64,000 bases of DNA from the NCBI GenBank assembly GCA_963762445.1, contig CAVXLA010000007.1, positions 72,546 through 136,545 on the forward strand, written 5' to 3'. Below are positions 29,538 through 46,221 of this stretch, one piece after another. Source of the stretch: an uncultured Chloroflexia bacterium (lineage in GTDB: Bacteria > Chloroflexota > Limnocylindria > Limnocylindrales > CSP1-4). Numbering within the stretch: the first letter of the stretch is position 1; each line of letters starts with the position of its first letter. The position numbers and the translations under genes are program-made. The notes beneath the pieces were generated by a model that saw only the letters and a list, made by a program, of their open reading frames with translations, ran no database searches and was not told the origin of the DNA.

Positions 29538-29556
29538 TCCCGTCGTCGGCCGGGGC

Positions 29557-30441
29557 TCAGCCGAGGCCGGAGTAGCTGTGGAGCCCGCCGAAGAAGAGGT
29601 TGCCGAAGTACGTCATGAGCGTGGCGCCGAAGCCGACGAGCAGGAGGATCGCCGCCTTGTTGCCCCGCCAGCCGCGGACGACGCGGGCGTGGAGGTAGGC
29701 ACCGTAGATGAACCAGGTCACGAGCGACGCGGTCTCCTTGGGGTCCCAGCCCCAGTAGCGGCCCCAGGCCACGTCGGCCCACAGGGCGCCGAGGACGATC
29801 GTGAGGGTGAGGAAGGGGAAGCCGACGACGATCGCCCGGTAGCCGATCTCGTCGAGGACCTGCGGCTTGGGGAGCCCCCAGCGGCCGGTCTCGGGCTGGA
29901 TGAGGTAGAGGAGGGCTGCCGCGAAGGCGATCGTGAAGGAGCCGTAGGCGACGATCGCCGTGGCGACGTGAACGGAGAGAAGGAGGTTGTTCTGGAGCGC
30001 CGGGACGAGCGGCTCGATGTCGGCCGGGATCGTCAGGGCGTAGCCCAGGAGGGCGAGGGCGACGGGGAATGCCAGCAGGCCCAGGACGCGCTGGTGGTAC
30101 TTGCGCTCGAACCAGAGGTAGGCGCCGAGGATCCCGAACGCGAAGGCGACGGAGAACTCGTACATGTTGGAGAAGGGCCCGTGGCCGGTGGCGATGGTGC
30201 GGAAGACGAGGCTCGCGCCCAGCAGGAGGAAGCCCAGCCACCCCAGGATCGTGGCGTAGTGCCCGATCGAGGCGGTCCGGGGCCCGGACACGAAGCCCAC
30301 GCGGCCGGTGGACATCGGCACGCCCGCGGCGGCGAGCCGGGCGGCCCGCACGCCGGAGACGGCGTAGAGGACGTACGCGATCAGGGCCAGGGCCGTCATC
30401 GCGATCCCTGCTTCGAGGGAGTAGATGGCCATCTTTTCCAT
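29557..30441 (-). CDS. ccsA: Cytochrome c biogenesis protein CcsA/ResC
   Basis: AGGAG RBS. Trp-rich haem-handling motif WGRYWGWDPKETASL. Multi-TM. Confidence 0.9.
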   Translation of the reverse strand: MEKMAIYSLEAGIAMTALALIAYVLYAVSGVRAARLAAAGVPMSTGRVGFVSGPRTASIGHYATILGWLGFLLLGASLVFRTIATGHGPFSNMYEFSVAFAFGILGAYLWFERKYHQRVLGLLAFPVALALLGYALTIPADIEPLVPALQNNLLLSVHVATAIVAYGSFTIAFAAALLYLIQPETGRWGLPKPQVLDEIGYRAIVVGFPFLTLTIVLGALWADVAWGRYWGWDPKETASLVTWFIYGAYLHARVVRGWRGNKAAILLLVGFGATLMTYFGNLFFGGLHSYSGLG

Positions 30442-30451
30442 GGTTCCGCTC

Positions 30452-31912: not shown

Positions 31913-31925
31913 GCGTGTGCCTCCG

Positions 31926-32693
31926 TCAGCCGCCGAGCGGCGCCGTGATTGCCGCGAGACGCGCCAGCAGGTTGGTGACCATGAGGACGCCGAGCACGAT
32001 CAGCAAAGCCCCGCTCACGAGCGAGACGGCGCGGTGGTGGCGCCCGACCCAGCCGAGCCGGCGGGCGACCCACGTCGCGCCCATCGCGACGGCAAGGAAC
32101 GGCACGGCGAGGCCGGCCGCGTAGGCAAGGAGAAGGACGGTGCCCTGGGCCACGCTGGCGGTCGAGGATGCGAGGCCGATAATCCCGCCCAGGATCGGTC
32201 CGATGCAGGGGCTCCAGCCGGCGGCGAAGACGACGCCGAAGAGGAGCGAACGGCCGTAGCCGGGGGCCCCCACGCCGGTCCCGCCGCCGAGGGCGACGGT
32301 CCCGCCGCCAATCGTGGCGCCGCCCAGGGCCGCCCCGCCGAAGACGGGCATGGGCCGCGTGTCGCGCCATAGGGCCCGCACGTTGATCACGCCGGCGACC
32401 TGCAGCCCCAGGACCACCAGGACCGCGCCGCCGATCATGCGCAGGTACTTCGCGTTGTCGGCGAGGGCGTAGCCGATCGCCCCGATGGAGGCCCAGAAGG
32501 CGACGAAGACGATCGTGAAGCCGGCGACGAAGGCCAGGCCGTGGAGGAGACTCCGGCGGCGGTCGGCCTCGCCGGTGGCGCCCACCATGTACCCGATGTA
32601 GGCGGGCACGAGCGGCAGGCAGCACGGCGAGGCGAAGGAGACGACGCCGGCAAGGAAGGCGACGACGAGGCCGATCCCGGCCCCGACGGTCAT
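31926..32693 (-). CDS. ccdA: Cytochrome c biogenesis thiol-reductant transporter CcdA (DsbD family)
   Basis: SFASPCCLPLVPAYIGY and AGWSPCIGPILGGI, the two conserved Cys-containing TM motifs. Confidence 0.9.
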   Translation of the reverse strand: MTVGAGIGLVVAFLAGVVSFASPCCLPLVPAYIGYMVGATGEADRRRSLLHGLAFVAGFTIVFVAFWASIGAIGYALADNAKYLRMIGGAVLVVLGLQVAGVINVRALWRDTRPMPVFGGAALGGATIGGGTVALGGGTGVGAPGYGRSLLFGVVFAAGWSPCIGPILGGIIGLASSTASVAQGTVLLLAYAAGLAVPFLAVAMGATWVARRLGWVGRHHRAVSLVSGALLIVLGVLMVTNLLARLAAITAPLGG

Positions 32694-33943
32694 GGCTGGG
32701 GGCTCCCGGACGGCGCCACGGAAGGCGCCGGGCTGGCGGGGGCCGTCGATGGCGCCGGGCTGGCGGCCGGCGACGCTGCCGGAGAGCCGGCCGGGCCGGG
32801 CGAGGCCGAGGCCAAGCCGGCGATCGCCGTCAGGTGGGCCTGCACCGTCTTGGCCAGCTGGCTCCCCGGATCCAGCTCGATGACCCGGTTCCAGTGGAGC
32901 TCGACGGCCGCCAGGTCGGGCGGCTGGCGGTTGAAGTAGAGGAAGCCGAGGTCATAGTGCGCCTCGACGCTCGCCTCGTCGATGTCGAGCGCCTTCCGCC
33001 AGGCGACCTCGGCCGCGTCCTGGTCGCCGTTGTTGAAGGCGGTGGCGCCCAGGGCCAGGAAGCCGCGCGCCTTCCCGGGCTCCAGCGTGGTGACCTTGGT
33101 GAACCAGTCGCCGGCCGTGGTGAAGTCGCCGATCCGGTAGTACTCGTCGCCGAGCGCCATCAGCGAGTCGGCGTCCTTGGGGTTCGCCTGGATCTTGCCC
33201 ATCAGAGTGGCGACCTTCGCCTGGTCGAGCACCGCGGCGCTGGGCGCCGCGGTGGCTGCCGGGCTGGCGCCGGCGCCGATGCCGCCCCCGCCGCTGCCGC
33301 CGAAGCCGTAGCCGACGACGGCGACGATCCCGATGGCGGCGACCGTCGCGCCGACCAGGGCAAGGTTGCGGAAGGCCTTCGAGGCGAGAAGCTCACCGAG
33401 GGCGCTGCTGCGCGGGGCGCTCACCGGCCGCACGGCCGCGAGGGCGGCCGCCCGCTGGGCGGCGGTTCCGACGATCTCGCGGCGGGCGGACGGATCCACC
33501 TCGGCGAGCAGGGCGTCGATCTCGTCGTCGCTGACGATCCGGCGCCCGTTCTCGTCGTAGCGCGGCAGTGGTGGGGCCGGAGCTGCCGTCGCGGCGGGGG
33601 GAACCGCGACGGCAGCCGGCGCAGGGGAATCCCGGTGGGCCGGAGGTGTCGCCGACCCACCGGGAAGGACGGCCGACCGTGCGCCCGCCCCGACGAGGGC
33701 GACGGCGCGAGCGAGCGCGGCCGGGTCCGTGAGAAGTGCGTACGCCTCGTCGGCTCCGGCAGCCTGGGTCCGGGCCCAGGAGCGGAGGCCGCGCGGCGCC
33801 GCGGCGAGGTACGCGGAGACCGCCTCGTGGGCGGCCCCCAGGTCCTCGGGGGTGGCGGACGGGTCGAGGCCGAGACGGGCCAGGAGCTCGCGCTCCAGCT
33901 TCTCGGCGGGCGTCGCCCTGGGGGTGGCGGGCGACGCGCTCAT
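32690..33943 (-). CDS. Membrane-anchored TPR-repeat protein, coupled to ccdA
   Basis: ATG 33943 follows a GGGAG RBS, and the stop overlaps the ccdA start (ATGA at 32690-32693). Contains a central TM helix (NLALVGATVAAIGIVAVVGYGF), C-terminal TPR repeats (LMALGDEYYRIGDFTTAGDWFTKV...) and an Ala/Pro/Ser-rich tail. Confidence 0.65.
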   Translation of the reverse strand: MSASPATPRATPAEKLERELLARLGLDPSATPEDLGAAHEAVSAYLAAAPRGLRSWARTQAAGADEAYALLTDPAALARAVALVGAGARSAVLPGGSATPPAHRDSPAPAAVAVPPAATAAPAPPLPRYDENGRRIVSDDEIDALLAEVDPSARREIVGTAAQRAAALAAVRPVSAPRSSALGELLASKAFRNLALVGATVAAIGIVAVVGYGFGGSGGGGIGAGASPAATAAPSAAVLDQAKVATLMGKIQANPKDADSLMALGDEYYRIGDFTTAGDWFTKVTTLEPGKARGFLALGATAFNNGDQDAAEVAWRKALDIDEASVEAHYDLGFLYFNRQPPDLAAVELHWNRVIELDPGSQLAKTVQAHLTAIAGLASASPGPAGSPAASPAASPAPSTAPASPAPSVAPSGSPQP

Positions 33944-34100
33944 CGCGTCGCTCCCGCCGGGCGCGCCCACCGGGCGCGCGCTCGTGCTGCGTCCATTGCC
34001 GGTTGCCCTCGTTGCGCACCGGGTCCATGCCCGGTCCCTTGACACCTGCGGCCAATTGTCCGGGTCGCGGGCCGGTGATCCCATCTGCCGGGGGACACAA

Positions 34101-34116
34101 ATGCGCGCGCGCGCAT
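34101..34116. promoter_or_regulatory. Perfect 16-bp palindrome ATGCGCGCGCGCGCAT (alternating CG core)
   Basis: Read directly. It lies in the 309-bp gap between the octahaem gene stop (34253) and the TPR gene start (33943). Confidence 0.3.
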
Positions 34117-34252
34117 AGGTTCGGCCGATAGGGGGAGCTTTCAGGCGGTGTACCGATCGATACAGGGGGCGCCGGGCGGGCAGCCGCCCTGGGGCGGCCT
34201 GGATCATGGCCCGAGGCGACCTCGGGCGGCGGCGTCCCCCGTGCCGCCTCGC

Positions 34253-37027
34253 TCAGTAGGTCTCGCCGTCGTGAGGCCAGCCGTGGCAGATGAGCGTGCA
34301 GCTGCCGCCGGTCGCCGTCTTCGTGAACTTGATCACGCCGTTCGCGTCGGGATACGGCTCGACATTCGGCGCGAAGTTGACGAGCCCGGTGTTGGCGCGA
34401 TCCCCGGCGTTGAACGCCTGCGCCGTGGAGTGCGTGCGGAAGTGGCACTCAGCGCAGATGGCGTTGCCGCCGCCTTCCCCTGGCGAGTCGATGCTCGTGC
34501 CGCGGGGGCCGTCGCCGGCGATCGTCGACACGTGGAGATCGTGGTCGTCGAAGACCGTCATGATGGCCGTGCCGCTGCGGAAGGGGGCCTCCGCGTGGCA
34601 GACGTAGCAGAGCGCGAAGTCGGCCCCGTCGTACGCCTCGTCCCACGACTTCAGGACCCGGTCGCGGTAGTTCTGGATCAGGAGTCCGCGGTACTGGCTC
34701 GTGTGCGGCGCCAGGTCGTCGCCGGCGGCGGTCGGGCTCGTCCCGGCCGTGGGCAGGGTCGCGTTGTACTTCCGCGGATCGCCGTGGCAGTTGACGCAAC
34801 GCACGGTGCTGGCGGTCGTGAAGTTCCACTGCTTGTACGGCGAGCTGTTGTTCAGGCTCCAGGTCATCTGGTCCGAGTCGTTCGTGCCCCGCGCCTCAAC
34901 CGGGTGGTACGACGCGTTGGCCGGGTTCAGCTCGATCGCCTTGTCGAGCGCCCACGTCGATGGGAACGTAAGGTCGGGTGCCGGGAGCGTCGTGAACCCG
35001 GAGTGGCACTTCAAGCAGACCTCGTACTCCCGATCCGGCTGGGACCCGGCCGCGCCGCTGAGGAACGTGTAGGTCGGCGGCTCGCCGGGCAGGCCGTTCG
35101 CGACGGAGACGCCCGAGATCGCAACCTGCCGTCCCGAAACCGACCAGCCGTCGGTGAACTGGGTGGGCGGCGTGGCCGTCGCGTTGTGCGTGTTGTGGCA
35201 GTCCGCGCACTCGGCGTGCCGGTTCAGGGCGCCCCCGAACTCGTTGTCCTTCGCGAGCGTGTGGGCGATCGGCGCCGACGTGCTGAGCGCGTCGTGGCGG
35301 TAGTAGGCGCTCGGCACCGTGCCCGGGGTCCCGGCGCTGTTGTCGGGCACCGCCGGGTCCGTGTACTGCGCCGTCGTGACCAGGTTCGAGCCCGTGCCGT
35401 CGTGACAGGTGAAGCACATGTTCGCCAGGGGTGCCGGCCTGGCGACCAGGCCGGTGTTCTCGGCGACGTGCGACCGGTGGCAGACGGCGCAGGTGTCCGA
35501 CACCAGGGTCATGTCCGGCACGTGGAGCGACGTGAACGGGGCCGCGAGCTGGTAGCGGGTCGCGGGCGCGGTCTGGGTCGCGACCGCCAGGCGGTAGGTT
35601 GGCGTCCCGCTCGCGAGCCATGTCGTCGCCATGAGGGCGGGCGTCACCAGCGGGAAGTCGACCCCGCTCACCGCCGACGGCCGCGCGTCCACCGGGGGAC
35701 CGACCGGGATGCCGTCGCGCTGGCCCGGCGACGCAGCGAATGCCGTCCGCGATGCGCTCCAGACCTGGCCGAGCGCCGCGCCGTGGATCGGCCGGGCACC
35801 GTCGACGAGCCTGAAGTCGAAGGCCTGCCCCAGCGGGAGGGCGCGGGTGACTCTCACCGTGAACTCGACCTCGGTGAAGGAGTCGCCTGCCAGGACGAGG
35901 CCGGGAACGCGGGTCGAGCCCATGAAGCGCGCGCCGGCCGCGGGCTCCTGCGTGTCGAAGTCGCGGTCGTGGACCCGGATGGCGCTCGTCGGGATCTCCT
36001 CCGAGAGGGGACCGGGGAGGGTGCCGCGGCCGCCCGCCATCGGGCGCCACTCCACGCCGACGTAGAACGGGACCTCGATCTCGCGGCGCCCGAGGGGGAC
36101 GTCGGCATAGGCCGGCTCGCCGCCGAGGCGGAACTGGAGGCGGGGGGTGACCTCGACGGGCACCGTGTCGGCGTTGCGCAATTGGAAGCCGATCCGGAAG
36201 GTGTCGTAGCGATCGACGCCGAGCAGGGGCTCGTCGGCGGCGAGGTAGTCCACCTGGTGGCTGACGCCGCCGATACGAGCCAGCGTGACGTGTTCCACGA
36301 TGATGTCGGGCGCCACGCGCAACCCCAGGGACGCGGCGTCGAGCAGCCCACCGGCGTGCTCCAGCCGGGCCTCGAGGATCGCGTCGAAGGCGGGCCGGTT
36401 CTCCGGCGACCGGGCCGGAGCCCGCAGGCGCACCGTCTCAGTCACGCGGTCGCCGGCGGCGAGGATGCCCTCCATCCAGGTGATGGTCCCGTTGTCCGGG
36501 TCGACGGTCCCGCCGCCGGTGCCGACCGGGCTCCAGCCAGGCGGCACGATCGCGATCAGCCGCACGTCCTTGGCGCGGTCGAGCACCCGGGCCGTCAGGC
36601 CGACGGTGACGATGGATCCTGGATCGACACGGCGACGCCCGGCGGCCGGTGCGTCAGCCGACACGCTCAGGGTCCCGCGAACGACCGTTGGCGTCGGAGT
36701 GGGGCTCGGGCTGGGCGTCGGGCTCGGCGTGGGCGAGGGATCGGGCGTCGGCGTTGGCGAGGGATCGGGCGTCGGCGTTGGCGAGGGATCGGGCGTCGGC
36801 GTTGGCGAGGGATCGGGCGTCGGCGTTGGCGAGGGATCGGGCGTCGGCGTTGGCGAGGGATCGGGCGTCGGCGTTGGCGTCGGATCGACGGCCGGAGCGG
36901 GCGTGGGATCGACGGCGCCGACCGACGGGACGACCGGCGTAAAGGCGAGGACCGCCACGACCGCCACCAGCACGGCCCCGAAGACAGGACCGGCGCGGTG
37001 TTGAGCGGTCTGACGCTTGGTGATCAT
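34253..37027 (-). CDS. Large modular secreted/anchored multihaem c-type cytochrome (7 CxxCH + 1 CxxxCH)
   Basis: GGAGGA RBS and an N-terminal hydrophobic anchor/signal. (DPSPTPTP)n linker, then a non-haem region of about 450 aa. The C-terminal haem domain carries CAVCH, CFTCH, CADCH, CLKCH, CVNCH, CYVCH, CAECH and a terminal CTLICH. Confidence 0.8.
36735..36878. repeat. Perfect 24-bp tandem repeat x6 (gagggatcgggcgtcggcgttggc) inside the octahaem gene
   Basis: Six identical units start at 36735, 36759, 36783, 36807, 36831 and 36855. They encode the (PSPTPTPD)6 linker on the minus strand. Confidence 0.95.
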
Positions 37028-37144
37028 GTTGCCTGAGTCCTCCGGGGCCCCGTGGTCGCGGAAGCGACCACGGGGTTGGGAGTAGGTCCTGGCGCAACCG
37101 GCGTGGAGGTCGGCTCGCGGTGGACCGCTGGACGTTGTCTTAGG

Positions 37145-38374
37145 TCAGGGAAGAATCGGGACGGGCACGGGGCCAGCAGCAGGCTCCCCCGAGTCCGTCG
37201 GGTCGTGGCACATCTGGCACGTTCCGCGGTTGTCGACCTTGAGGAGGCGGCTGTCGGTGCTGGCGGTGGTCGACACCGGGTCGAACACGCCGCCCACGAT
37301 GTTGTCGGGGAACGCCACGTGCTGGGAGTTGTACCCGGGCATCAGGGCATTCGAGCCGTGGGCCACGTGGCACGTGGTGCACGGCCTGCTGCTCGTGGTG
37401 TCGTGCCGGTACTTGTAGATGGCGTCGGTGGTTTCGTTGCCGAACCCACTCTGGTAATACCGCGTGTGGCATGTGCTGCACCACGCGGTGATCTGGGTCT
37501 TGAAGATCGTCTTGTCGGCATTGCCGATGGGATTGTCGTAGTCGTTCCGGCTCGCGGACGTCCACGGCACGCGCTGGTGCCAGTAGTCACCGGCGGAAGC
37601 GTTGCCGACGGCAGCGACGTCAGTTGCGAGGTAGATCTGGCCGCCGGAGGCATCGGTCTGGATGACGGTGTAGTTGCGCGTGGCCCCGTTGAGGTCCGCC
37701 GCCAGCGTCGGGCCGTCGGGGACGATCGCCGGGGCCGCCAAGGGCTCGGTGAGTCCCGGCGGCGGGTTCGGTTCCGGCCTCAGGATCCGGTAGTTGCCGT
37801 TCCCGTGCGGGTTATGGCACGACCCGCACGCGAGCGTCACGACCGGCCCGGGCTCGGGCGTCGTAGAGTCGGGCCCGTTGCCCCAGGCGCGTCCCGGGGT
37901 GGTCGCGAACGTGGCGCCCGCAAGCTTCAGGTGCGCCGAGGTCGTCGGCAGTCCCGAAGCCAGGGCAGGAACCTTGCGGTTCCCGGTGGCGCTCCGCCAC
38001 GCGTCCGACGAAGCGATACGGGCGAAGACGAAGCCGCCACCGCGGAGGGCGCCGATGACGGCGGTCCCTCTGATGGTGCCAGCGCTCGCATCGCCGGCGT
38101 CGAACTGGACGCCGTCCACGACGTTGGTCGTGGCGCCGGTCCCATTGGTGCCGTGGCAAACCAGGCACAGCGTCGCCTGGTCGGTGATGAGCTGGAATTC
38201 GGCCTGCGCGGTGTGGGCCCGATGGCAGCCGGCGCAACTGTCGGACGTGAGGCCCAGGGGGCCCGAGCCGTCGTTGTTCGCTGCCACGTGAGGTCCACCA
38301 TCCGCCAGGGCCGGAATCGCGGCAAGGAACAGCCAGAGCGCGGCTCCTGCGAGCAGGAGCGTCCATCGCCTCAC
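37145..38374 (-). CDS. Secreted hexahaem c-type cytochrome (paired-CXXCH type; OmcS-like by motif context)
   Basis: AAAGGAGGTGA RBS, then GTG 38374. Signal peptide ...FLAAIPALA|DGG. Six CxxCH motifs at aa 47, 70, 183, 299, 332 and 386 (CAGCH, CLVCH, CGSCH, CSTCH, CTTCH, CQMCH). At least 8 additional His are available as distal ligands. Confidence 0.8.
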   Translation of the reverse strand: MRRWTLLLAGAALWLFLAAIPALADGGPHVAANNDGSGPLGLTSDSCAGCHRAHTAQAEFQLITDQATLCLVCHGTNGTGATTNVVDGVQFDAGDASAGTIRGTAVIGALRGGGFVFARIASSDAWRSATGNRKVPALASGLPTTSAHLKLAGATFATTPGRAWGNGPDSTTPEPGPVVTLACGSCHNPHGNGNYRILRPEPNPPPGLTEPLAAPAIVPDGPTLAADLNGATRNYTVIQTDASGGQIYLATDVAAVGNASAGDYWHQRVPWTSASRNDYDNPIGNADKTIFKTQITAWCSTCHTRYYQSGFGNETTDAIYKYRHDTTSSRPCTTCHVAHGSNALMPGYNSQHVAFPDNIVGGVFDPVSTTASTDSRLLKVDNRGTCQMCHDPTDSGEPAAGPVPVPILP

Positions 38375-38482
38375 TGTCCTCACCTCCTTTCTCTGACTCT
38401 GCGGTGTCTCGACGAATGGGCCGCCACGATCGGCGGCGAGCATCGGTCCGGCGTCACCTCCCTCTTCGTGATCCCAGGAGCC

Positions 38483-39550
38483 TCAGTAGCTCCAGATCTG
38501 CACGCGGTCGTTGAACGTGTCAGCCACGTACACGCGTCCGCGCGCGTCGACCGCGACGCTGTTGGGGTACTCGAACCGCGCGTCCCCCACGCCCTCGCCG
38601 CCGATGTAGCCGAGGAAATCGAGGCGGCGGCTGTCGTCGGTAGGTGGGCGGTAGACGAAGACGCCCTGGCCGGTCGAGTCGGCGACGAACACCCGCCTGC
38701 TGCCGTCGACGGCCAGACCGCGCGGCAGTCCGAGGTTGCCCTGGCCGGCTCCGCGGCCGATCTGGGCATGGATCGTGCCATCGGCGCCGAACATGAGCAG
38801 GCGGCCGTTGTTGCTGTCGGACACATAGACGTTGCCGGCCCCGTCGACCGCGACCCCGTTCGGGAACGAGAGCTTGCTTGTCTCGCCGAGCGTCCGGACG
38901 ACCGTGGCCGTGCGGTCGATGACGAGGACCTTCTGGAAGGGGCCCGAGAGGTCCGTCACGTACAGGTTGCCCTTGGTGTCGAAGGTCAACCCCAGGGGCT
39001 GCCAGCCCGGCCGCGGCAGCGCGAGCGTGAGCTCGCGCTGGAAAGCCCCGTCGCGGTCGTAGATGTAGATCGCCCCGGCCAGGCGGTCGCTGACGTAGAC
39101 CTCGCTCGTGAGGGGGTCAATCGCCAGGTAGACAGGCGCGTGGTCGGTCCCGGTCGCCTCTGGCGGCGCCATCGTGCCGACCTTGTTGCCGCCCGCATCG
39201 AAGACGATCCCGGTCCGATCGCCCGACGACTGGGCGACGTAGATGCGGTCGCCCGACGGGCTGACGGCCACGCCGGAGGGACGCAGGGCGCCGTAGATGG
39301 CCGTCGCGTAGGAGGGCACTTCCGTCTGCGGGATCCCCGGGAGGGGCAGAGGGGGTATCGGCTGGCGGAACAGCAGATACCAGGTGGCAATCGTCGCCAG
39401 CATTGCCAGGAGGCCCAGGAGGAGGAGCGCGACGATCGCCTTGCGGCGCCGCCGGGGCTGCGCCTCGGGCTCGCCCTCGACGGCCGGCGGGCTGGGGGTG
39501 TCGTCGGCGGCCGGGACCGGGAGGCCGTCGGTGGTCATCTCGGCGGTCAT
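38483..39550 (-). CDS. Membrane-anchored NHL-repeat beta-propeller protein
   Basis: TM helix (IVALLLLGLLAMLATIATWYLLF) followed by repeated NHL-type blades (P.GVAV...G.IYV.D..N.RI..F). Examples are PSGVAVSPSGDRIYVA, PLGLTFDTKGNLYVTD, PNGVAVDGAGNVYVSDSNNGRLLMF, PRGLAVDGSRRVFVADS and PNSVAVDARGRVYVADTFNDRVQIW. TGATG overlap with the upstream TPR gene. Confidence 0.85.
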   Translation of the reverse strand: MTAEMTTDGLPVPAADDTPSPPAVEGEPEAQPRRRRKAIVALLLLGLLAMLATIATWYLLFRQPIPPLPLPGIPQTEVPSYATAIYGALRPSGVAVSPSGDRIYVAQSSGDRTGIVFDAGGNKVGTMAPPEATGTDHAPVYLAIDPLTSEVYVSDRLAGAIYIYDRDGAFQRELTLALPRPGWQPLGLTFDTKGNLYVTDLSGPFQKVLVIDRTATVVRTLGETSKLSFPNGVAVDGAGNVYVSDSNNGRLLMFGADGTIHAQIGRGAGQGNLGLPRGLAVDGSRRVFVADSTGQGVFVYRPPTDDSRRLDFLGYIGGEGVGDARFEYPNSVAVDARGRVYVADTFNDRVQIWSY

Positions 39551-40536
39551 CAGCCGTTCCCTCCGGCCGGCGCGCCGGGCGTCGGCAGAGCGGGCAGCGA
39601 GGTCGCGCCGGGGCCGACGCGGCTCATCCCGAGACGTGCGGCGGCGTTCTGCGGGTCCTTGGCGAGCGCCTTGCCATACCAGTCGGCTGCCGTCGCGGTG
39701 TCGCCCTTCGTCTCGTACAGGAGGCCGAGGCCGATCGCCGCGTCCAGCGCGGCGTCGCCGTCCACGATCGCGAGGAGGCGAGGCTCGGCGAGCTCGGGCT
39801 TCCCACCGTTCAGGTCGGCCATGGCGCCGGCCCATTCGGCCTCGGCCGTCTTGCCGGCCTTCGTGAAGCCCTCGGCGAGCGCCGTGTACGGCTCGCTCCA
39901 GCCGATCGGCACGAAGGCGATCGCGGACCGCAGGGCGGTTTCGGCCTTGCCGGTCTCGCCGGTCGCGACGTAGGCCGTCCCGATCAGGTAGAGGGCGTCC
40001 GCGTCCGAGCGCTGGATCGCGAGGGCCTTCTCAAGGAAGGGGATTGCCTCGGCCGGCTTTGCCTGCTGCATTGCGATCGAGCCGAGGCTGTAGTACGCCG
40101 CCTCGAGCGTGGGGTCGACGTTGGCCATCTCGCCGCCCTTGGCGATGTCGACGACCGCCTGGTAGTCCTTCGCCGCGTCGTCGAGTCGGCCGAGGCCCAT
40201 GTAGGCGGCGGCGCGCCCGAACGTGGCCAGCTCGGTCTCCTTGTTCGACTCGAGGATCAGGTTGTACTGGACGATCGCGTCCTCGAAACGGCCCTTGGCG
40301 ACGTACGTGTCGGCGAGCTCACCGCGCGAGGCGACGTCGTCCGGCGTGTCGCGCACGGCCTGCTCCAGCGCGGTGAGGCGCTGGTCGACGATCGGCGTGG
40401 TGGCCGGGCGCCAGCGATCGAGCGCGTAGAAGCCCACGAAGGCGATCGTTCCGACGACGAGGAGCAGCAGAACCCGCTTGATCAGCCGGTTGAGCTGCCG
40501 ATCGTCCATCTTGGTCGGGGACGTGACCCGGAACAT
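39550..40536 (-). CDS. Membrane-anchored TPR-repeat protein
   Basis: N-terminal TM helix (VLLLLVVGTIAFVGFYAL) followed by several TPR units (GELADTYVAKGRFEDAIVQYN..., AAYYSLGSIAMQQAKPAEAIPFLEKAL..., GLLYETKGDTATAADWYGKALAKDP). The start is ATG 40536 (AGGTG RBS) or GTG 40545. Confidence 0.8.
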   Translation of the reverse strand: MFRVTSPTKMDDRQLNRLIKRVLLLLVVGTIAFVGFYALDRWRPATTPIVDQRLTALEQAVRDTPDDVASRGELADTYVAKGRFEDAIVQYNLILESNKETELATFGRAAAYMGLGRLDDAAKDYQAVVDIAKGGEMANVDPTLEAAYYSLGSIAMQQAKPAEAIPFLEKALAIQRSDADALYLIGTAYVATGETGKAETALRSAIAFVPIGWSEPYTALAEGFTKAGKTAEAEWAGAMADLNGGKPELAEPRLLAIVDGDAALDAAIGLGLLYETKGDTATAADWYGKALAKDPQNAAARLGMSRVGPGATSLPALPTPGAPAGGNG

Positions 40537-40861
40537 GTGTGGCACCTGCTGTTACGACCTGTTAGCGACGCGTTGCAGCACGGGGCGCACCGGGAGGCAC
40601 ACCCCACCGCGGGTAATGGTCGGCTGCAGGGGCGCGCGAGCCAATCCGCCGGGGGGTAGAAGATGGATACAGGCCGGGAGTCGTGCCCGCGATCCGGGCA
40701 TGTATCGGGCGGATGATGGTGCGCAGACGCGCCGCCATGGTCGGGCCCACGGGCGCCGACGATCCTCGCGGAGCCGCTGGGTTCCCGTGCCGATATGCTC
40801 TCTGTCCGCGAGTCGGGAGGGTTCGCCGCCCGGCCCGGAGAAGCCGGAGGGGCGCCGCTCG

Positions 40862-42379
40862 ATGGGCAAGGCGAGCCGCGCGAAGCGGCCGGGGATCGGG
40901 CCCGCCGCGGTCGCGGCGCGGTCCGCGCGGCCCGCGCCGGAGGCGACGGCCGTTGCCCCGGGGGCCTCCTCCACGGGGCTCGGCGGCGCGCTCGCGGGAT
41001 GGGGCTCCGGGCTCGCCTCGATCGCGGCCACGTGCTGGCTGCTCGCGCACGTCCCCGCGCTCGCCCCGGTGGCGATTCCGGCGTGGGTCGTGACGGGCCT
41101 CGCGCTCGGCGTCCTCTCGCCGTGGCTCGGGCTGCTCCTCACGATCGCGGTGGTCCCCTTCCTCGGCGGCGCGATCGAGCCGATCGCCGGCGAGGTCCTC
41201 CGCGTCATGCCGATCTACGGCGCGGCGGCGAGGGTCCTGCTCGACCGGTTCGTGCTCGGGCCACGCCTCGGCCGTGTCGGCCCGGAGGGGCCGCCGTGGT
41301 GGGTCGTCGGGGCGGCCGTCGCGGCGACCGCGCTCTACGCGTACACCGCCCAGACGGGCTTTCTGGCCGCGGGCATGGATCCGCTCTACTTCGACTCCGC
41401 CATCCGCTGGCTGGCCGGCGGTCCGATGGCGATGATGGCCGCCTGGATCGCCGCATCCCACCTGGTTGCCGGCCGGGACACGGCGCTCACCACCGTCGTG
41501 CTGGGAGCGACGGCGGCCGGCTGTGTCCTCGCCCTGGCGGCCTGGCTGGGCGCTCCCGGCGTCGACCTCCTCACCTTCCCGGGCATCGTCAACGGCCGCC
41601 TCGCCGGGCTCGGCTACCCGACCCCGACGGCCATGGGTGTGGCGATCGCCCTGCCGTTCGCGGTCGCCGCGGCGCTCCGCTGGACGCGCTGGCTCGCCTT
41701 CGGCGTCATCGGGCTCGCGCTGGTCGTGATGATTCTCACCTGGTCGCGCGGCCCGCTGATCGCCGTCGGCATCGGGACGGTGGTGGCGGTGCTCGCCAGC
41801 GGGCGCGTCGAGCGGCGCCTCCGCATCGCCGGCCTCGCGGTCGGCGCCGTCGCGCTCCTCGCCCTCGTCGTCGTGCGCTACGGGACGAGCGTCGACGCGA
41901 TCGTCGCGGCCATCGGCGGCAGCGCCGGCAGCGACGTCGACCGGGTGAACACCTGGATCGCGGCGGTCACGATCGCGATCGGGAGCCCGCTGGTGGGTGG
42001 CGGCTGGCACAGCCTGGAGCGCGTCGGCGACTTCGCCACGCGCCAGGTCGCCTACAGCCACAACATCCTCCTCCACGGCTTCGCGGAGGGAGGCATCCCG
42101 CTGGGGATCACGAACGCGACCGTGATCCTCTACTCCGCCTGGCGGACCTGGCTCGGCCGGCACACGATGGCGCCGTACCTCATCGCGGCGGTCGTCGTCT
42201 GCCTGGTCTGCGGCTTCTGGGACATGCCGCAGGTCCGGAGCTACGCCGCGGTCATGGGCGGGATCGCGCTGGGGATGGCCGCCGGCCCGCTCATCGGGCG
42301 GTCAACCGGCGGACCGGCGCCGCGCGCGGCCGGCGCTCAGGCGCTCGGGCGCGGCGTGGAGAAGTCGGCCGCGAGGTAG
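40862..42379 (+). CDS. O-antigen ligase/polymerase-like (Wzy_C family) membrane protein
   Basis: More than 10 predicted TM segments, with LTWSRGPLIAVGIG followed by an extracytoplasmic loop ending in HNILLHGFAEGG. Start at ATG 40862. The 3' end overlaps the convergent Rieske gene by 43 bp. Confidence 0.7.
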   Translation: MGKASRAKRPGIGPAAVAARSARPAPEATAVAPGASSTGLGGALAGWGSGLASIAATCWLLAHVPALAPVAIPAWVVTGLALGVLSPWLGLLLTIAVVPFLGGAIEPIAGEVLRVMPIYGAAARVLLDRFVLGPRLGRVGPEGPPWWVVGAAVAATALYAYTAQTGFLAAGMDPLYFDSAIRWLAGGPMAMMAAWIAASHLVAGRDTALTTVVLGATAAGCVLALAAWLGAPGVDLLTFPGIVNGRLAGLGYPTPTAMGVAIALPFAVAAALRWTRWLAFGVIGLALVVMILTWSRGPLIAVGIGTVVAVLASGRVERRLRIAGLAVGAVALLALVVVRYGTSVDAIVAAIGGSAGSDVDRVNTWIAAVTIAIGSPLVGGGWHSLERVGDFATRQVAYSHNILLHGFAEGGIPLGITNATVILYSAWRTWLGRHTMAPYLIAAVVVCLVCGFWDMPQVRSYAAVMGGIALGMAAGPLIGRSTGGPAPRAAGAQALGRGVEKSAAR

Positions 42380-42861
42380 ATCTCGATGCGGCCGTCGATC
42401 TCGCGGACGCGGAACTCGTCGAGTGGGCGCGGCGGCGGCCCGGACAGGACGTTCCCGTCGAGGTCGAAGCGTGCGTCATGGCAGAGGCAGGAGAACGTCG
42501 CCTCGTCGGTCCACTCGTAGGCGCAGCGGGCGTGGGGGCAGCGAGGGTCGAAGGCGACGAGCTCGCCGGCGGGGCGGAGGACGAGCCAGGCGGAGCCGGA
42601 GATGGACGCCCCGCCGACCGTTCCCGCGAAGCGGACCGGCACCGGCGTGTCGACCACCAGCGTGCTCGGGTCGACGTCTGCCTGCAGCCAGCCGCGCGCG
42701 GCGGGCGTGGCGCCGGCGCCGCAGGCCTCGAGGAGCGCCATGCCTGCGACCGAGGAGCCGATGACGGCGAGCGCGTGCCGCCGGCTGATGGGGCGCGATG
42801 CGGCGAGCGGGCGAGGGGTGCCCGCGACGGGCGGCGCGCTCGGATCCGGCATGCCGGACAT
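42337..42861 (-). CDS. Rieske [2Fe-2S] domain protein with a Tat/lipoprotein-type signal
   Basis: SRRHALAVIGSSVAGMALLEAC (twin-Arg plus lipobox). Rieske boxes CPHARC and CLCHDARF. Confidence 0.85.
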   Translation of the reverse strand: MSGMPDPSAPPVAGTPRPLAASRPISRRHALAVIGSSVAGMALLEACGAGATPAARGWLQADVDPSTLVVDTPVPVRFAGTVGGASISGSAWLVLRPAGELVAFDPRCPHARCAYEWTDEATFSCLCHDARFDLDGNVLSGPPPRPLDEFRVREIDGRIEIYLAADFSTPRPSA

Positions 42862-42909
42862 CCTACCCTTGGTCCGTCGTGGGGTGCGAGGCAGGAGCTC
42901 GGGCCGCGC

Positions 42910-43368
42910 TCAGCCGGCGACCGGCGCGACCCTGGCGGCCGTCGGGGACGGGGCGGCGGACGGCGTGGCCGCGGGCGCCGGCCCCGGCGCCGGCGATGGA
43001 GCGGCAACCGGCGCCGGGGCGGCCCGGCGGTTCCCCAGGCAGGCGGCGATGATCCGGTCGATCAGCGAGTCGGGGTCGGGCGCGATGGCCTCGCGGCGGA
43101 TTGTCCACGCCTGCGAGGTGCTGATGCTGACGTCGACGATGGCCCGGCAGCGGCTGTCGCGGAGCAGGTCGACGAGGCCGACCGGCCCGCCCTCCTCGAG
43201 GATCACCACGTCGGCGTCGCTGGCGATCGCTCGCTCCATGGCGTCGGGATCGCCCATCGCGACTCGCTCCACCTCGAGGTCGGGCACGGACGCCATGAGG
43301 GCGCCCAGCCCCTCGCCGAGAAGCGGATGGTCGTACAGGACGAGGACCTTGACCGGGTCCGACATCAC
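42910..43368 (-). CDS. Receiver-like (pseudo-receiver?) domain protein with an Ala/Pro-rich tail
   Basis: VKVLVLYDHPLLGEGL...DADVVILEEGG resembles a CheY-like fold, but the expected phospho-acceptor Asp position reads E. No output domain. Confidence 0.45.
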   Translation of the reverse strand: MMSDPVKVLVLYDHPLLGEGLGALMASVPDLEVERVAMGDPDAMERAIASDADVVILEEGGPVGLVDLLRDSRCRAIVDVSISTSQAWTIRREAIAPDPDSLIDRIIAACLGNRRAAPAPVAAPSPAPGPAPAATPSAAPSPTAARVAPVAG

Positions 43369-43534
43369 GCCGGGTACCCCCTATCGGGCGAGCCCGGGCA
43401 GGGCTCGCTCGGCGCGATGCTACGGAGCGTGACCCGGCGTCACCATCCGCCCGTCGGCACAAATCACGGGCCGGAGCGTCTATCGAACGGCACCGCGCGC
43501 CCCGGCGTGGCGACCGCGTCGGCGCTGGGGTCGG

Positions 43535-44254
43535 CTACCCCCCCGGGCGCGGCTCTGCGGGTCGCGGCTCGGACGGGCGGGGCGGCATCCCCAGGCCTTG
43601 GGCAACCGTGTAGGCCGCCGCCTGGGTGCGGTTGGAGAGGTGGAGCTTCTCGAGGGCGTTGTGGACGTGGTTCTTGACGGTGCCCTCGGTGATCACCAGC
43701 TGGGTGGCGATCTCCTTGTTCGAGAGCCCGCCCGCCACGAGCTGGAGGATCTCCGTCTCGCGCCGGGTCAGTGACGTCTCGCCGTCGCGCGAGACCGGGG
43801 CGTGGGGCCGGGGCGGTCCCTCGCGGAGCGCGTCGAGCAGCTTGTGGGCGATCCCCGGGGCGATCGGGGCCTCGCCGCGCATGACTCCGCGCAGGTCGTC
43901 GAAGAGGACCTCGGGCCGGATGTTCTTCAGGAGGTAGCCGTTGGCGCCGGCGCGGATGGCGTCGAAAAGGTCGTCGTCCTCCTCCGAGATCGTGAGCATG
44001 ACGATCTTCGTCGCGAAGCCCGCGCCCCGGATCGCCCGCACACCATCCACCCCGCCGGCGATCGGCATGTTGACATCCATGAGCACGACATCGGGGTTGA
44101 GTGCGCGCACCCGTTCCAGGGCCTCGAGCCCGTCGTCGGCCTCGCCGACGACCGTCATGTCGAGCTGGCCGTTGACGAGCCCCGCGAGCGCCTTCCGAAA
44201 GAGCGGGTGGTCGTCAACCAGCAGGACGCGCAGGGACGGTGGCGTGTGCGGCAC
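43535..44254 (-). CDS. NarL/FixJ (LuxR-type HTH) response regulator
   Basis: AGGAGGAA RBS, then GTG 44254. Contains RVLLVDDHPLFR, DVVLMDVNMP and a C-terminal LTRRETEILQLVAGGLSNKEIA...TVKNHV. Confidence 0.9.
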   Translation of the reverse strand: MPHTPPSLRVLLVDDHPLFRKALAGLVNGQLDMTVVGEADDGLEALERVRALNPDVVLMDVNMPIAGGVDGVRAIRGAGFATKIVMLTISEEDDDLFDAIRAGANGYLLKNIRPEVLFDDLRGVMRGEAPIAPGIAHKLLDALREGPPRPHAPVSRDGETSLTRRETEILQLVAGGLSNKEIATQLVITEGTVKNHVHNALEKLHLSNRTQAAAYTVAQGLGMPPRPSEPRPAEPRPGG

Positions 44255-46082: not shown

Positions 46083-46221
46083 GCACATGTGCGCATTGGT
46101 CCATGCGAAGCGCTGCGGCGGGCGCCGCGGTGCGCAGGGGCACCGCAATCGATCTCGCGGGCCGGGTCTGGCGTGCCGCAGCGGCCCGACCGGGCATCCG
46201 GCGACGGCCCGTGGGGCCGCG

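What the first reader, a model, noticed from the sequence alone, without database searches (positions are those of the whole stretch)
37145..38374. 409-aa secreted hexahaem cytochrome whose motif order and flanking residues resemble the nanowire cytochrome OmcS
The gene has the strongest RBS in the locus (AAAGGAGGTGA) and a clean signal peptide (..AIPALA|DGG). Six CxxCH motifs lie at aa 47, 70, 183, 299, 332 and 386. At least eight extra His could give bis-His ligation.

Several motif contexts match what I recall of Geobacter OmcS, which is also about 400 aa with six haems:
- An N-terminal doubled motif, C-x2-CH-x2-H ... C-x2-CH-G/x.
- A GG(D/G)F segment after it (RGGGFVF).
- The third motif, C-x-S-CH-[ND]-PHG followed by YRIL.
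- The fourth motif, WC-x2-CHT followed about 20 aa later by (Y/L)RH.
- The fifth motif, C-x-[ST]-CH-x-AH-[GA]-S.
- A C-terminal C-x2-CH-[AD].

The spacing between motifs 4-5 and 5-6 is shorter than I remember for OmcS. If it is a homologue, it is a divergent and more compact one in a very different (GC-rich, probably monoderm) lineage.
Basis: partly seen in the sequence, partly recalled or inferred. Interest (0 to 1): 0.82.

Follow-up and report, generated by a model that had tools for sequence, protein, structure and literature searches.

The report
Compact OmcS-like hexahaem cytochrome, Chloroflexota
This gene encodes a secreted six-haem cytochrome from an uncultured soil Chloroflexota lineage that is a distant, compact relative of the Geobacter "nanowire" protein OmcS and sits in a conserved cluster that looks like an electron conduit from membrane to cell surface; whether it forms wires is untested.

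Summary
Window 37145-38374 (minus strand, GTG start) encodes a 409-aa protein with a signal peptide and six CxxCH motifs at the stated positions. It has the strongest ribosome-binding site in its cluster.

It belongs to a large unannotated family: 2827 clusters at 50% identity, and at least 159 Chloroflexota genomes, many labelled Limnocylindrales/Limnocylindria. All 12 Cys and 12 His are conserved, enough for six bis-His haems. They lie in the same order as the 12 conserved His of the OmcS family.

The OmcS link is real but remote:
- HMMER and BLAST against the PDB do not find OmcS.
- Foldseek with a good AlphaFold model (pLDDT 80) ranks OmcS first, but not significantly (E 1.2, TM 0.28).
- Profile-profile alignment is collinear. 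It covers the full length through an intermediate subfamily and beats every block-permuted control.
- The NHL-propeller gene directly upstream is shared with OmcS loci.

The gene lies in a 14-gene cluster with near-constant order in 77 loci: sensor kinase, regulator, Rieske, TPR, NHL, hexahaem, anchored octahaem, TPR, System II haem-attachment genes, and a NapC-like decahaem. The best reading is the abundant middle component of a quinol-to-surface conduit, like Thermincola CwcA. Polymerisation is possible but untested.

The parts
37145..38374 (-). Hexahaem c-type cytochrome gene (HEX), 409 aa, GTG start
   Evidence: Pfam Paired_CXXCH_1 at 6e-20. More than 2186 homologues.
38380..38390 (-). Shine-Dalgarno AAAGGAGGTGA, 5 nt before the GTG start; the leader is conserved across the family
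38303..38374 (-). Signal peptide (aa 1-24, ...AIPALA|DGGPH), unusually conserved
   Evidence: Hydrophobic stretch aa 4-26. W14, L15, A19, P21 and A24 are invariant in A1. Cleavage is inferred.
38222..38236 (-). Haem motif 1, C47AGCH51, followed by H54
   Evidence: invariant in 150 sequences.
38153..38167 (-). Haem motif 2, C70LVCH74
   Evidence: Reciprocal best context match to OmcS motif 2.
37814..37828 (-). Haem motif 3, C183GSCH187, then NPH190GNGNYRIL
   Evidence: Best context match to OmcS motif 3, CSSCHDPHG.
37466..37480 (-). Haem motif 4, W-C299STCH303-T; the YRH324 ligand candidate lies 21 aa later
37367..37381 (-). Haem motif 5, C332TTCH336, then VAH339GS
37205..37219 (-). Haem motif 6, C386QMCH390, followed by the conserved tail ending PxPxLP
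37048..37075 (-). 12-bp perfect GC hairpin between the HEX stop and the RBS of the next gene; possibly a transcript stabiliser or partial terminator
   Evidence: z = -4.0. Stems of 9 bp or more occur downstream of HEX in 14/70 loci against 7/225 controls. Function is inferred.
38483..39550 (-). Membrane-anchored NHL-repeat beta-propeller; its ATG overlaps the TPR1 stop
   Evidence: Pfam NHL 3.7e-26. TM helix. Matches the gene directly upstream of omcS-family genes at 25-35% identity.
39550..40545 (-). TPR protein 1 with an N-terminal TM helix
   Evidence: Present in 67 of 78 loci.
34253..37027 (-). 924-aa protein: N-terminal anchor, Pro/Thr-rich linker, non-haem middle domain, C-terminal domain with 7 CxxCH plus 1 CxxxCH
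32690..34207 (-). TPR protein 2 (the true start is probably later)
28932..32693 (-). System II cytochrome c maturation genes: CcdA (31926-32693), ResB (30452-31912), ResC/CcsA (29557-30441), ResA-like thioredoxin (28932-29537)
27173..28906 (-). 577-aa membrane-anchored decahaem with a NapC/NirT/NrfH-type N-terminus; candidate quinol dehydrogenase
   Evidence: 31% identity over 121 aa to Thermincola ImdcA.
42337..46148 (-). Upstream cluster genes: Rieske protein (42337-42861), 152-aa receiver-like protein (42910-43368), LuxR-type response regulator (43535-44419), GAF histidine kinase (44214-46148)
   Evidence: Synteny in 49-57 of 78 loci.

Best explanation
HEX is an exported c-type cytochrome with six haems, all probably ligated by two histidines. 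That ligation suits an electron carrier rather than a catalyst.

It represents a large, unannotated family centred on the Limnocylindria (Ellin6529) lineage of Chloroflexota. It is a remote, more compact relative of the OmcS family. Both are built from three 'doubled CXXCH' units with the same 12-Cys/12-His blueprint.

It is the strongly translated middle component of a conserved three-cytochrome chain of 10 + 6 + 8 haems:
1. A membrane-anchored NapC/NirT-type decahaem exchanges electrons with the quinone pool.
2. HEX carries them through the extracytoplasmic or cell-wall space.
3. A membrane-tethered octahaem on a long Pro/Thr linker presents them at the surface.

Membrane-anchored NHL-propeller and TPR proteins serve as scaffolds or assembly factors. 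A dedicated System II machinery attaches the haems. A GAF kinase and LuxR-type regulator control expression.

**Shown:** gene, motifs, conservation, synteny, remote collinear similarity to OmcS.
**Inferred:** export, bis-His ligation, the order of the chain, direction of electron flow, location, oligomeric state.
For: - **Motifs and start:**
- **Family size and taxonomy:**
- **Ligands:** twelve His conserved (11 invariant, H29 in at least 90%) and 12 invariant Cys in 150 diverse members. These match the 12 conserved His of 41 OmcS-family proteins in order.
- **Collinear alignment to OmcS:** BLASTP, 46-311 against 8-251. hhalign Viterbi, 290 columns across motifs 1-5. Full length through subfamily 2.
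- **Controls:** other multihaems score 62 or less. The native order ranks first among permutations. Motifs 2, 3 and 4 are reciprocal best context matches, and the diagonal ranks 4 of 720.
- **Structure:** OmcS is the only cytochrome retrieved by Foldseek from 350,542 chains.
- **Shared neighbour:** an NHL-propeller gene lies directly upstream in four OmcS loci and here.
- **Synteny:** 14 genes in 77 loci, and in a second lineage that uses System I maturation.
- **Decahaem:** NapC/NrfH-type N-terminus, TM anchor and similarity to ImdcA.
- **Octahaem:** anchor, PT linker and 12 conserved extra His.
- **Expression signals:** strong, conserved SD.
- **Precedent:** Thermincola ImdcA-PdcA-CwcA-OcwA, where the hexahaem CwcA was modelled on OmcS (PMC7911101).
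Against: - No significant sequence hit to OmcS by phmmer or hmmsearch.
- The Foldseek match is not significant (E 1.2, TM 0.28).
- Masking the Cys/His columns abolishes the profile-profile signal.
- Block-permuted OmcS still reaches hhalign 'probabilities' of 98%, so those probabilities are inflated by the repeated haem modules.
- The subfamily-2 HMM scores MtrA (35 bits) almost as high as OmcS proteins (up to 41 bits). The DmsE-family HMM gives 54 bits on HEX. HEX could therefore simply belong to a broad paired-CXXCH supergroup.
- Nothing in the window fixes the electron acceptor or donor, the direction of flow, or the envelope type of the organism.
- A Rieske protein in the cluster has no assigned place in the proposed chain.
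Confidence: 0.55

Rival explanations
1. HEX polymerises head to tail like OmcS. The +3 His of motif 1 (H54, equivalent to OmcS His16) ligates haem 5 of the next subunit. This would form a haem wire that crosses the cell wall, and possibly extends beyond it, in a Chloroflexota cell.
For: - It has the same 12-ligand blueprint as OmcS. If the ligation pattern is inherited, haem 5 needs a His from a neighbouring subunit. OmcS haem 5 is ligated by a His of the adjacent subunit (PMC12203936; PMC9473688).
- Haem motifs sit close to both termini, and the tails are invariant (DGGPH; PxPxLP).
- In the monomer model, only the N-terminal segment 21-67, which carries H29, motif 1 and H54, is poorly predicted (with loop 189-202). 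The rest is confident.
- The SD is the strongest in the cluster and conserved, and a hairpin recurs after the gene. Both fit a major structural subunit.
- Inter-motif loops tolerate insertions of several hundred residues, so they must be exposed.
- Thermincola CwcA, proposed to polymerise, could only be obtained insoluble.
Against: - No multimer model, no coordinates and no experiment.
- Fold similarity to OmcS is not significant.
- None of the OmcS companion genes other than the NHL gene is present.
- All of the supporting features also fit an abundant monomeric carrier.
Confidence: 0.25
2. HEX is a generic paired-CXXCH periplasmic-type cytochrome. Its resemblance to OmcS is only the shared modular construction (three doubled-CXXCH units), not specific common ancestry. 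It serves an ordinary respiratory branch, for example quinol to a soluble or enzyme-bound acceptor.
For: - The only curated domain is Paired_CXXCH_1.
- MtrA is the best, though weak, PDB sequence hit.
- The DmsE-family HMM gives 54 bits. MtrA scores 35 bits on the subfamily-2 HMM.
- Masked alignments collapse. Permuted controls still score about 99.
- TM to OmcS is 0.28.
Against: - The native order beats every permutation.
- Motifs 2-4 are reciprocal best context matches.
- The OmcS HMM scores HEX and subfamily 2 at 10-26 bits but MtrA and other multihaems below 0.
- Extended alignments of 204-324 columns are seen only with OmcS.
- Both proteins share the position of a ligand His at the mature N-terminus, and subfamily 2 shares the C-terminal end right after haem 6.
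- The NHL neighbour is shared.
- No catalytic subunit is encoded in the cluster.
Confidence: 0.2
3. The conduit runs inward. The cluster takes electrons from an extracellular donor, such as Fe(II), Mn(II) or reduced humics, and passes them to the respiratory chain. The Rieske protein would be part of the high-potential acceptor side.
For: - A Tat-type, membrane-anchored Rieske protein is conserved in the cluster.
- One related locus comes from a MAG named 'MnB_4 Mn-Chloroflexi-1'.
- Multihaem conduits are known to work in either direction (PMC5815863).
Against: - Bis-His haems and a NapC/NirT-type quinol dehydrogenase are typical of low-potential, outward conduits (established knowledge).
- No potentials, physiology or expression data are available.
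- The MAG name is anecdotal.
Confidence: 0.15

Closest known systems
OmcS (GSU2504; PDB 6EF8/6NEF) and its family (OmcT, OscC) of Geobacter and relatives
   Same: - Size of about 400 aa, a Sec signal peptide and six CxxCH motifs.
- Twelve conserved His in the same order: N-terminal His; CxxCHxxH; CxxCH; His; CxxCHxxH; CxxCH; His; CxxCHxxH; CxxCH.
- Similar contexts at motifs 2-4: C-x-S-C-H-[DN]-P-H-G, W-C-x-x-C-H-T, [YL]-R-H.
- GG-x-F after motif 2.
- An NHL-propeller gene directly upstream.
- The sister subfamily also ends 2-3 residues after haem 6.
   Different: - About 21-23% identity, with no HMMER-level significance.
- Foldseek TM of 0.28.
- Gaps 1-2, 4-5 and 5-6 are much shorter; gaps 2-3 and 3-4 are longer.
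- An extra conserved C-terminal tail, PxPxLP.
- The host is Chloroflexota.
- No OscB or OscD-H secretion and folding genes. The partners are instead TPR proteins, an anchored octahaem, a NapC-like decahaem and System II genes.
- Filament formation is unknown.
CwcA (TherJR_1122 / Tfer_0075), the cell-wall hexahaem of Thermincola (Firmicutes)
   Same: - A hexahaem in a non-proteobacterial lineage, proposed as a remote OmcS homologue (18% identity).
- Encoded alongside a membrane-anchored NapC-like decahaem (ImdcA).
- Works with a surface multihaem.
- The proposed role is bridging the cell wall (PMC7911101).
   Different: - The CwcA sequence could not be obtained here, so the relationship is untested.
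- The primers in the paper's supplement imply a mature N-terminus EEPYY and a C-terminus VQYADVAG, unlike DGGPH and PxPxLP.
- The Thermincola surface reductase OcwA is NrfA-like, whereas the octahaem here has no detectable relatives.
MtrA/DmsE/MtoA decahaem family (PDB 6R2Q chain A)
   Same: - Built from doubled-CXXCH units with bis-His haems.
- Weak local matches (DmsE HMM 54 bits; MtrA is the best PDB sequence hit).
- An envelope-crossing electron-carrier role.
   Different: - Ten haems, and inserted in an outer-membrane porin.
- Matches cover only single doubled-CXXCH units (32-69 columns).
- The NCBIfam score is far below the family cutoff (54 against 192).
NHL-propeller plus multihaem clusters of Desulfovibrio ferrophilus (DFE_0448-0451, DFE_0461-0465)
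   Same: NHL beta-propeller proteins are co-encoded and co-expressed with surface multihaem cytochromes. They are proposed to stabilise the complex (PMC5815863).
   Different: The cytochromes are different, the setting is an outer membrane, and no sequence comparison was made here.

Membership tests
OmcS family (6EF8) | Six CxxCH motifs in a secreted protein of about 400 aa | tested here: met
OmcS family (6EF8) | Significant sequence similarity by BLAST or HMMER | tested here: not met
   No OmcS hit at E<=10 in the PDB with the sequence or the profile. OmcS proteins score 6-37 bits on the HEX HMM, and HEX scores -0.5 to 26 bits on the OmcS HMM. The pairwise BLASTP E of 9e-6 applies to a two-sequence search only.
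OmcS family (6EF8) | Collinear profile-profile alignment across the haem motifs that exceeds modular background | tested here: met
   HEX against the OmcS family: 290 columns across motifs 1-5. The native order ranks 1 of 25. Subfamily 2 against OmcS is full length, score 178. Native scores 153.6 against permuted mean 99, sd 15.5, max 133. Caveat: the signal vanishes when Cys/His columns are masked.
OmcS family (6EF8) | The same set and order of twelve axial His ligands (all haems bis-His) | tested here: met
   HEX: H29, 51, 54, 74, 148, 187, 190, 303, 324, 336, 339, 390. OmcS, mature numbering: H2, 13, 16, 51, 110, 144, 147, 243, 257, 332, 335, 404. Actual ligation is inferred from conservation.
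OmcS family (6EF8) | The same fold and haem arrangement | tested here: inconclusive
   AlphaFold2 model with pLDDT 79.9 and pTM 0.81. In Foldseek against the PDB, OmcS ranks first of only two hits, but with E 1.2, probability 0.06, TM 0.28. The model has no haems and no coordinates were available.
OmcS family (6EF8) | Polymerisation through an inter-subunit His to haem 5 | not testable with these tools
   No multimer prediction or coordinates. The OmcS property is taken from PMC12203936 and PMC9473688.
OmcS family (6EF8) | osc companion genes (OscB, OscD-H) next to the cytochrome | tested here: not met
   The Geobacter locus has spermine-synthase-like, YncE-propeller and LpoB/GNA1162-like genes, and a related locus has a rotamase gene. 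None of these is in the window cluster. Only the upstream NHL-propeller gene is shared.
Doubled CXXCH domain (Pfam PF09699 / TIGR01905) | Score above the curated cutoff | tested here: met
   71.1 bits against a cutoff of 20.6, four stretches. 63.9 bits against 25.2.
DmsE/MtrA decahaem family (TIGR03508) | Score above the curated cutoff; ten haems | tested here: not met
   54.5 bits against a cutoff of 192.2; six haems.
Thermincola CwcA-type cell-wall hexahaem | Sequence similarity to CwcA | not testable with these tools
Thermincola-type Gram-positive conduit (ImdcA-PdcA-CwcA-OcwA) | A membrane-anchored NapC-like decahaem co-encoded with the hexahaem | tested here: met
   A 577-aa protein with 10 CxxCH, one TM helix and a NapC/NrfH N-terminus. 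31% identity over 121 aa to ImdcA.

The most novel reading that the evidence does not exclude
The Limnocylindria hexahaem is a minimal OmcS-type nanowire subunit. It would polymerise through an inter-subunit His (H54 to haem 5 of the neighbour) across the cell wall of a Chloroflexota cell, assembled with an NHL-propeller partner inherited from the same ancestor as the Geobacter omcS-NHL pair. That would make OmcS-type wires an ancient trait shared by diderm and Terrabacteria lineages, and would give abundant soil and freshwater Chloroflexota a capacity for long-range extracellular electron transfer.
Probability: 0.25. Interest if true: 0.85.

Novelty: new variant of a known kind. Interest (0 to 1): 0.62.

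Why it matters
Limnocylindria (Ellin6529) are, to my knowledge, abundant and uncultured in soils and lakes. No extracellular electron transfer role was found for them in the searchable literature.

This work defines a large unannotated cytochrome family: 2827 clusters at 50% identity. It also defines a near-invariant 14-gene cluster with all the parts of a membrane-to-surface haem conduit.

The family gives a compact, sequence-diverse set of OmcS relatives. The conserved core (12 Cys, 12 His, a few flanking residues) and the freely variable loops are plainly visible. That is useful for working out what is essential for an OmcS-type haem chain and for engineering smaller wires.

The shared NHL-propeller neighbour points to a conserved assembly partner that predates the outer-membrane secretion genes of Geobacter.

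If the protein polymerises, it would extend cytochrome nanowires to a new phylum and a new envelope type.

Tried and rejected
- **AlphaFold2 with a shallow alignment** (40 sequences at 52% identity or more) gave pLDDT 44 and was not searched. A 150-sequence alignment including a divergent branch raised it to 79.9.
- **Foldseek against the PDB** gave no significant hit. I did not treat OmcS ranking first as proof.
- **PDB sequence searches** with the sequence and the profile found no OmcS.
- **hhalign probabilities (97-99.6%)** were not taken at face value. Block-permuted OmcS still gives about 98%, and masking Cys/His columns destroys the hit. I relied on the margin over permutations and over other multihaems instead.
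- **Long family members (600-870 aa) as tandem HEX-HEX fusions**, which would have argued for head-to-tail contacts. Rejected: they have six motifs with large loop insertions.
- **OscD (YncE propeller) as the counterpart of the window's NHL protein.** Rejected: E 0.016. The counterpart is the gene upstream of omcS.
- **Retrieving Thermincola CwcA** from the paper's supplement failed because the alignment is an image.
- **Shen et al. 2025 (osc cluster) and Wang et al. 2019** are not held in the library.
- **Cluster names** for the distant subfamily gave no taxonomy.
- **The consensus promoter/terminator scan** found nothing near the gene.
Full report
**1. What is in the sequence**

On the minus strand, window 37145-38374 encodes a 409-aa protein from a GTG start. 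The motif AAAGGAGGTGA (38380-38390) lies 5 nt upstream. A longer ATG-started ORF (to 38443) is possible mechanically. The homologues, however, begin at the same MRRW/MKRL position. The in-frame 'KEV' seen upstream in some database entries is simply the translated Shine-Dalgarno.

- Six CxxCH motifs lie at aa 47, 70, 183, 299, 332 and 386.
- There are 14 His and 12 Cys. All the Cys are in the motifs.
- A hydrophobic stretch at aa 4-26 ends in ALA|DGGPH.
- The window is 73% G+C, and the gene has the GC3 expected of a real gene.
- The SD is the longest anti-SD match among the 13 cluster genes: 10 nt against 5 or fewer.
- The leader AGAAAGGAGGTGAGGACA followed by GTG or TTG recurs almost unchanged in at least 43 of 75 related loci. 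The proteins in those loci are only about 50% identical.

**2. The family**

The protein has more than 2186 relatives in the 90% clusters. An exhaustive HMMER search found 2827 clusters at 50% identity with E<=1e-3, of which 463 have E<=1e-30. Sources call them 'predicted CXXCH cytochrome' or 'cytochrome c3 family' at best.

A scan of species-representative genomes found 159 relatives. Nearly all of the 78 loci listed are Chloroflexota MAGs, many labelled Candidatus Limnocylindrales/Limnocylindria and many from Danish soils.

In an alignment of 150 diverse members:
- All 12 Cys are invariant.
- Eleven His are invariant (51, 54, 74, 148, 187, 190, 303, 324, 336, 339, 390).
- H29 is conserved in at least 90%.

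That makes six proximal plus six further His, exactly enough for six bis-His haems. The signal peptide and the C-terminal tail (..GPxPxPxLP) are unusually conserved. The loops between motifs 3-4 and 4-5 accept insertions of hundreds of residues in some members.

**3. Is it related to OmcS?**

The evidence divides into tests that failed or were inconclusive, tests that point to a specific relationship, and gene context.

*Tests that failed or were inconclusive*
- phmmer and a family profile against all PDB sequences do not retrieve OmcS even at E<=10. The best, weak hit is MtrA.
- A HEX HMM scores OmcS-family proteins at 6-37 bits, and the OmcS HMM scores HEX proteins at -0.5 to 26 bits. Neither is significant at database scale.
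- NCBIfam and Pfam recognise only the doubled-CXXCH domain. The DmsE decahaem model gives 54 bits, far below its cutoff.
- A first AlphaFold2 model was useless (pLDDT 44). With a deeper and more diverse alignment the model reached pLDDT 79.9 and pTM 0.81.
- Foldseek against 350,542 PDB chains returned only two hits at E<=10. The first was OmcS 6ef8_A, but with E 1.2, probability 0.06 and TM 0.28. That is a pointer, not a fold match. The model has no haems, and OmcS-like proteins are mostly loops.

*Tests that point to a specific relationship*
- Pairwise BLASTP gives one collinear alignment, HEX 46-311 against OmcS 8-251, at 23% identity.
- hhalign of the HEX family against 41 OmcS-family proteins gives a Viterbi alignment of 290 columns through motifs 1-5.
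- The 12 conserved His of the OmcS family (mature 2, 13, 16, 51, 110, 144, 147, 243, 257, 332, 335, 404) occur in exactly the same order and motif classes as the 12 of HEX.
- Scoring only the residues around each motif, with Cys and His excluded, motifs 2, 3 and 4 are reciprocal best matches between the families. The diagonal assignment ranks 4th of 720.
- Against single sequences, the HEX profile matches OmcS with score 82 over 204 columns. It matches MtrA with 47/32, the neighbouring cytochrome with 62/48, and ImdcA, PdcA, OcwA and the decahaem with less than 40. The OmcS profile likewise prefers HEX (70/154) over MtrA (53/115).
- A sister subfamily of 25 representatives is unambiguously related to HEX (E 1e-108). 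It has N-terminus ADNGPH and motif 3 CxSCHDPHGNGNYRIL, and it ends 2-3 residues after haem 6, as OmcS does. It aligns with the OmcS family from signal peptide to C-terminus: 324 columns, score 178.

*Controls, which matter here*
- When the six motif-centred blocks of the OmcS alignment are permuted, hhalign still reports 83-99% 'probability'. The repeated haem modules therefore inflate that statistic.
- Even so, the native order is the best of 25 orders for HEX: 119 against 109 or less.
- It is also the best of 46 orders for the subfamily: 153.6 against mean 99, sd 15.5, max 133.
- Masking the Cys/His columns removes the signal altogether.
- With HMMER, the subfamily HMM scores MtrA (35 bits) close to the best OmcS proteins (41 bits).

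*Gene context*
- In the Geobacter omcS locus, the gene directly upstream of omcS on the same strand is a 315-aa NHL-type six-bladed propeller.
- It is conserved directly upstream of OmcS homologues in three other loci, at 37-50% identity.
- It matches the window's NHL protein, which sits in the same position relative to HEX, at 25-35% identity over 120-160 residues.
- The other omcS companion genes (spermine-synthase-like, YncE propeller, LpoB/GNA1162-like, rotamase) are absent from the window cluster.

*Conclusion on this point.* HEX is not a member of the OmcS family in the usual sense. It is most likely a remote relative with the same ligand blueprint, within a wider group of cytochromes built from doubled-CXXCH units.

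**4. The surroundings**

HEX lies in a long minus-strand cluster:

| Gene | Window coordinates | Notes |
|---|---|---|
| GAF histidine kinase | 44214-46148 | |
| LuxR-type regulator | 43535-44419 | |
| 152-aa receiver-like protein | 42910-43368 | |
| Rieske protein | 42337-42861 | Twin-arginine leader |
| TPR protein 1 | 39550-40545 | TM-anchored |
| NHL propeller | 38483-39550 | TM-anchored; ATG overlaps the TPR1 stop |
| HEX | 37145-38374 | |
| 924-aa protein | 34253-37027 | |
| TPR protein 2 | 32690-34207 | |
| CcdA, ResB, ResC, ResA-like | 28932-32693 | System II maturation |
| 577-aa decahaem | 27173-28906 | NapC/NirT/NrfH-type |

- The 924-aa protein has an N-terminal anchor and a roughly 75-residue Pro/Thr linker of the kind seen in cell-surface proteins. 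It also has a middle domain with no detectable relatives and a C-terminal domain. That domain carries seven CxxCH plus a conserved CxxxCH and 12 further conserved His in 49 homologues.
- The decahaem has one TM helix. Its N-terminus is 31% identical over 121 residues to Thermincola ImdcA.
- tblastn of all these proteins against 78 related loci shows the same genes in nearly the same order almost everywhere. HEX is in 78, NHL 73, the large cytochrome 72, TPR1 67, TPR2 65, ResB 57 and the kinase/regulator 52. The lower counts are mostly due to contig ends.
- A distant lineage (L083) keeps kinase-regulator-TPR-NHL-HEX-cytochrome-TPR-NapC but has System I (CcmE, CcmB) genes nearby. The cytochrome/TPR/NHL core is therefore the conserved unit.
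- These three are the only multihaem genes in the window.

**5. How it most likely works**

1. The anchored NapC-type decahaem acts as quinol dehydrogenase. This is established for the NapC/NirT/NrfH family.
2. HEX is the exported carrier.
3. The tethered octahaem on a long linker is the distal, surface-exposed member.

All three appear to be bis-His, which suits electron transfer rather than catalysis. The anchored TPR and NHL proteins are plausible scaffolds or assembly factors. Both TPR proteins have weak matches to the CcmH/CycH apocytochrome-chaperone TPR domain.

Expression signals are consistent with HEX being made in excess of its neighbours:
- HEX has by far the best SD.
- A 12-bp GC hairpin lies in the 117-nt spacer after it.
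- Comparable stems are enriched downstream of HEX in relatives (14/70 against 7/225).

This arrangement parallels the model for Gram-positive Thermincola (ImdcA, PdcA, CwcA, OcwA). There the hexahaem CwcA was modelled on OmcS at 18% identity and proposed to stack across the peptidoglycan (PMC7911101; PMC12203936).

The direction of flow, the substrate, the location, the role of the Rieske protein and the envelope type are all inferences.

**6. Could it be a wire?**

In OmcS, haem 5 is completed by a His from the adjacent subunit (PMC12203936, PMC9473688). To my knowledge this is His16, the +3 His of motif 1.

If the ligation pattern is inherited along with the blueprint, HEX would need a neighbour to complete haem 5. 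Three observations are suggestive but weak:
- In the monomer model, the segment carrying H29, motif 1 and H54 (residues 21-67) is the main low-confidence region, while most of the rest scores above 80.
- The termini are invariant.
- The loops are free to vary.

No multimer prediction or coordinates were available. I put polymerisation at about 0.25.

**7. Novelty and verdict**

Remote OmcS-like hexahaems outside Proteobacteria have a precedent in CwcA. OmcS machinery has also been described as widespread (Shen et al. 2025, cited in PMC13194489, not readable here).

I found no description of this Chloroflexota family or its cluster. The only paper mentioning Limnocylindria and multihaem cytochromes together counts only large cytochromes in Anaerolineae.

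I rate it a new variant of a known kind. It is an uncharacterised, compact OmcS-like hexahaem family with a distinctive, highly conserved partner set in an abundant uncultured lineage. Interest is moderate to high, at 0.62. The central structural claim, a nanowire, remains untested, and the homology to OmcS rests on a small set of residues.

Noticed in passing
window 40478-42379 (+): A 633-aa ORF with an O-antigen-ligase (Wzy_C) domain lies on the opposite strand between the Rieske and TPR1 genes. In the 91%-identical relative (L001) these two genes are only about 270 bp apart, so this is a genome-specific insertion into the conserved cluster.
   Followed up: partly
window 38375-38392 and the same position in L001-L078: The HEX leader AGAAAGGAGGTGAGGACA followed by a GTG or TTG start is conserved at the nucleotide level in at least 43 of 75 loci, although the proteins are only about 50% identical. 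It pairs a perfect SD with a non-ATG start.
   Followed up: partly
window 37048-37075: A perfect 12-bp GC hairpin (CCCCGUGGUCGC-UUCC-GCGACCACGGGG), without a U-tract, lies between the HEX stop and the next gene's RBS. Perfect stems of 9 bp or more occur within 160 nt downstream of HEX in 14/70 related loci, against 7/225 random pieces.
   Followed up: partly
window 34253-37027 (-), aa 40-115 and aa 910-915: The 924-aa neighbour has a tandem TPTPDPSP-type Pro/Thr linker. Besides seven CxxCH, it has a conserved CxxxCH (C910-TLI-C914-H915), which implies an eighth haem bound by an atypical motif. Its middle domain of roughly 370 aa has no detectable relatives and varies greatly in length among homologues (660-1370 aa).
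   Followed up: partly
L083 (contig_102875 of ERZ25039488), 2625-13592 and 15965-17293: A distant subfamily keeps the kinase-regulator-TPR-NHL-hexahaem-cytochrome-TPR-NapC order but has System I (CcmE, CcmB) genes nearby instead of System II. Its hexahaem ends right after haem 6, like OmcS.
   Followed up: partly
P0381, P0371, P0379, P0393, P0430, P0383 (family members of 600-870 aa): Some family members carry several copies of a 40-60-aa repeat (consensus around 'T..HG[FL].VGD.V.I.G') inserted in the loops between haem motifs 3-4 and 4-5. The six haem motifs are left intact.
   Followed up: no
L055, L060, L063, L071 (around 8001-9300): The HEX homologues in several MAG loci are broken by frameshifts. 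The flanking sequence is intact, so these are probably assembly or sequencing errors rather than pseudogenes.
   Followed up: no
window 42910-43368 (-): A conserved 152-aa protein between the regulator and the Rieske gene has only a weak match to the N-terminal receiver part of NarL-type regulators and an Ala/Pro-rich tail. It is present in 57 of 78 loci.
   Followed up: no
window 39548-39552: The NHL gene's ATG overlaps the TPR1 stop codon (TGATG), which suggests translational coupling of the two membrane-anchored partners.
   Followed up: no
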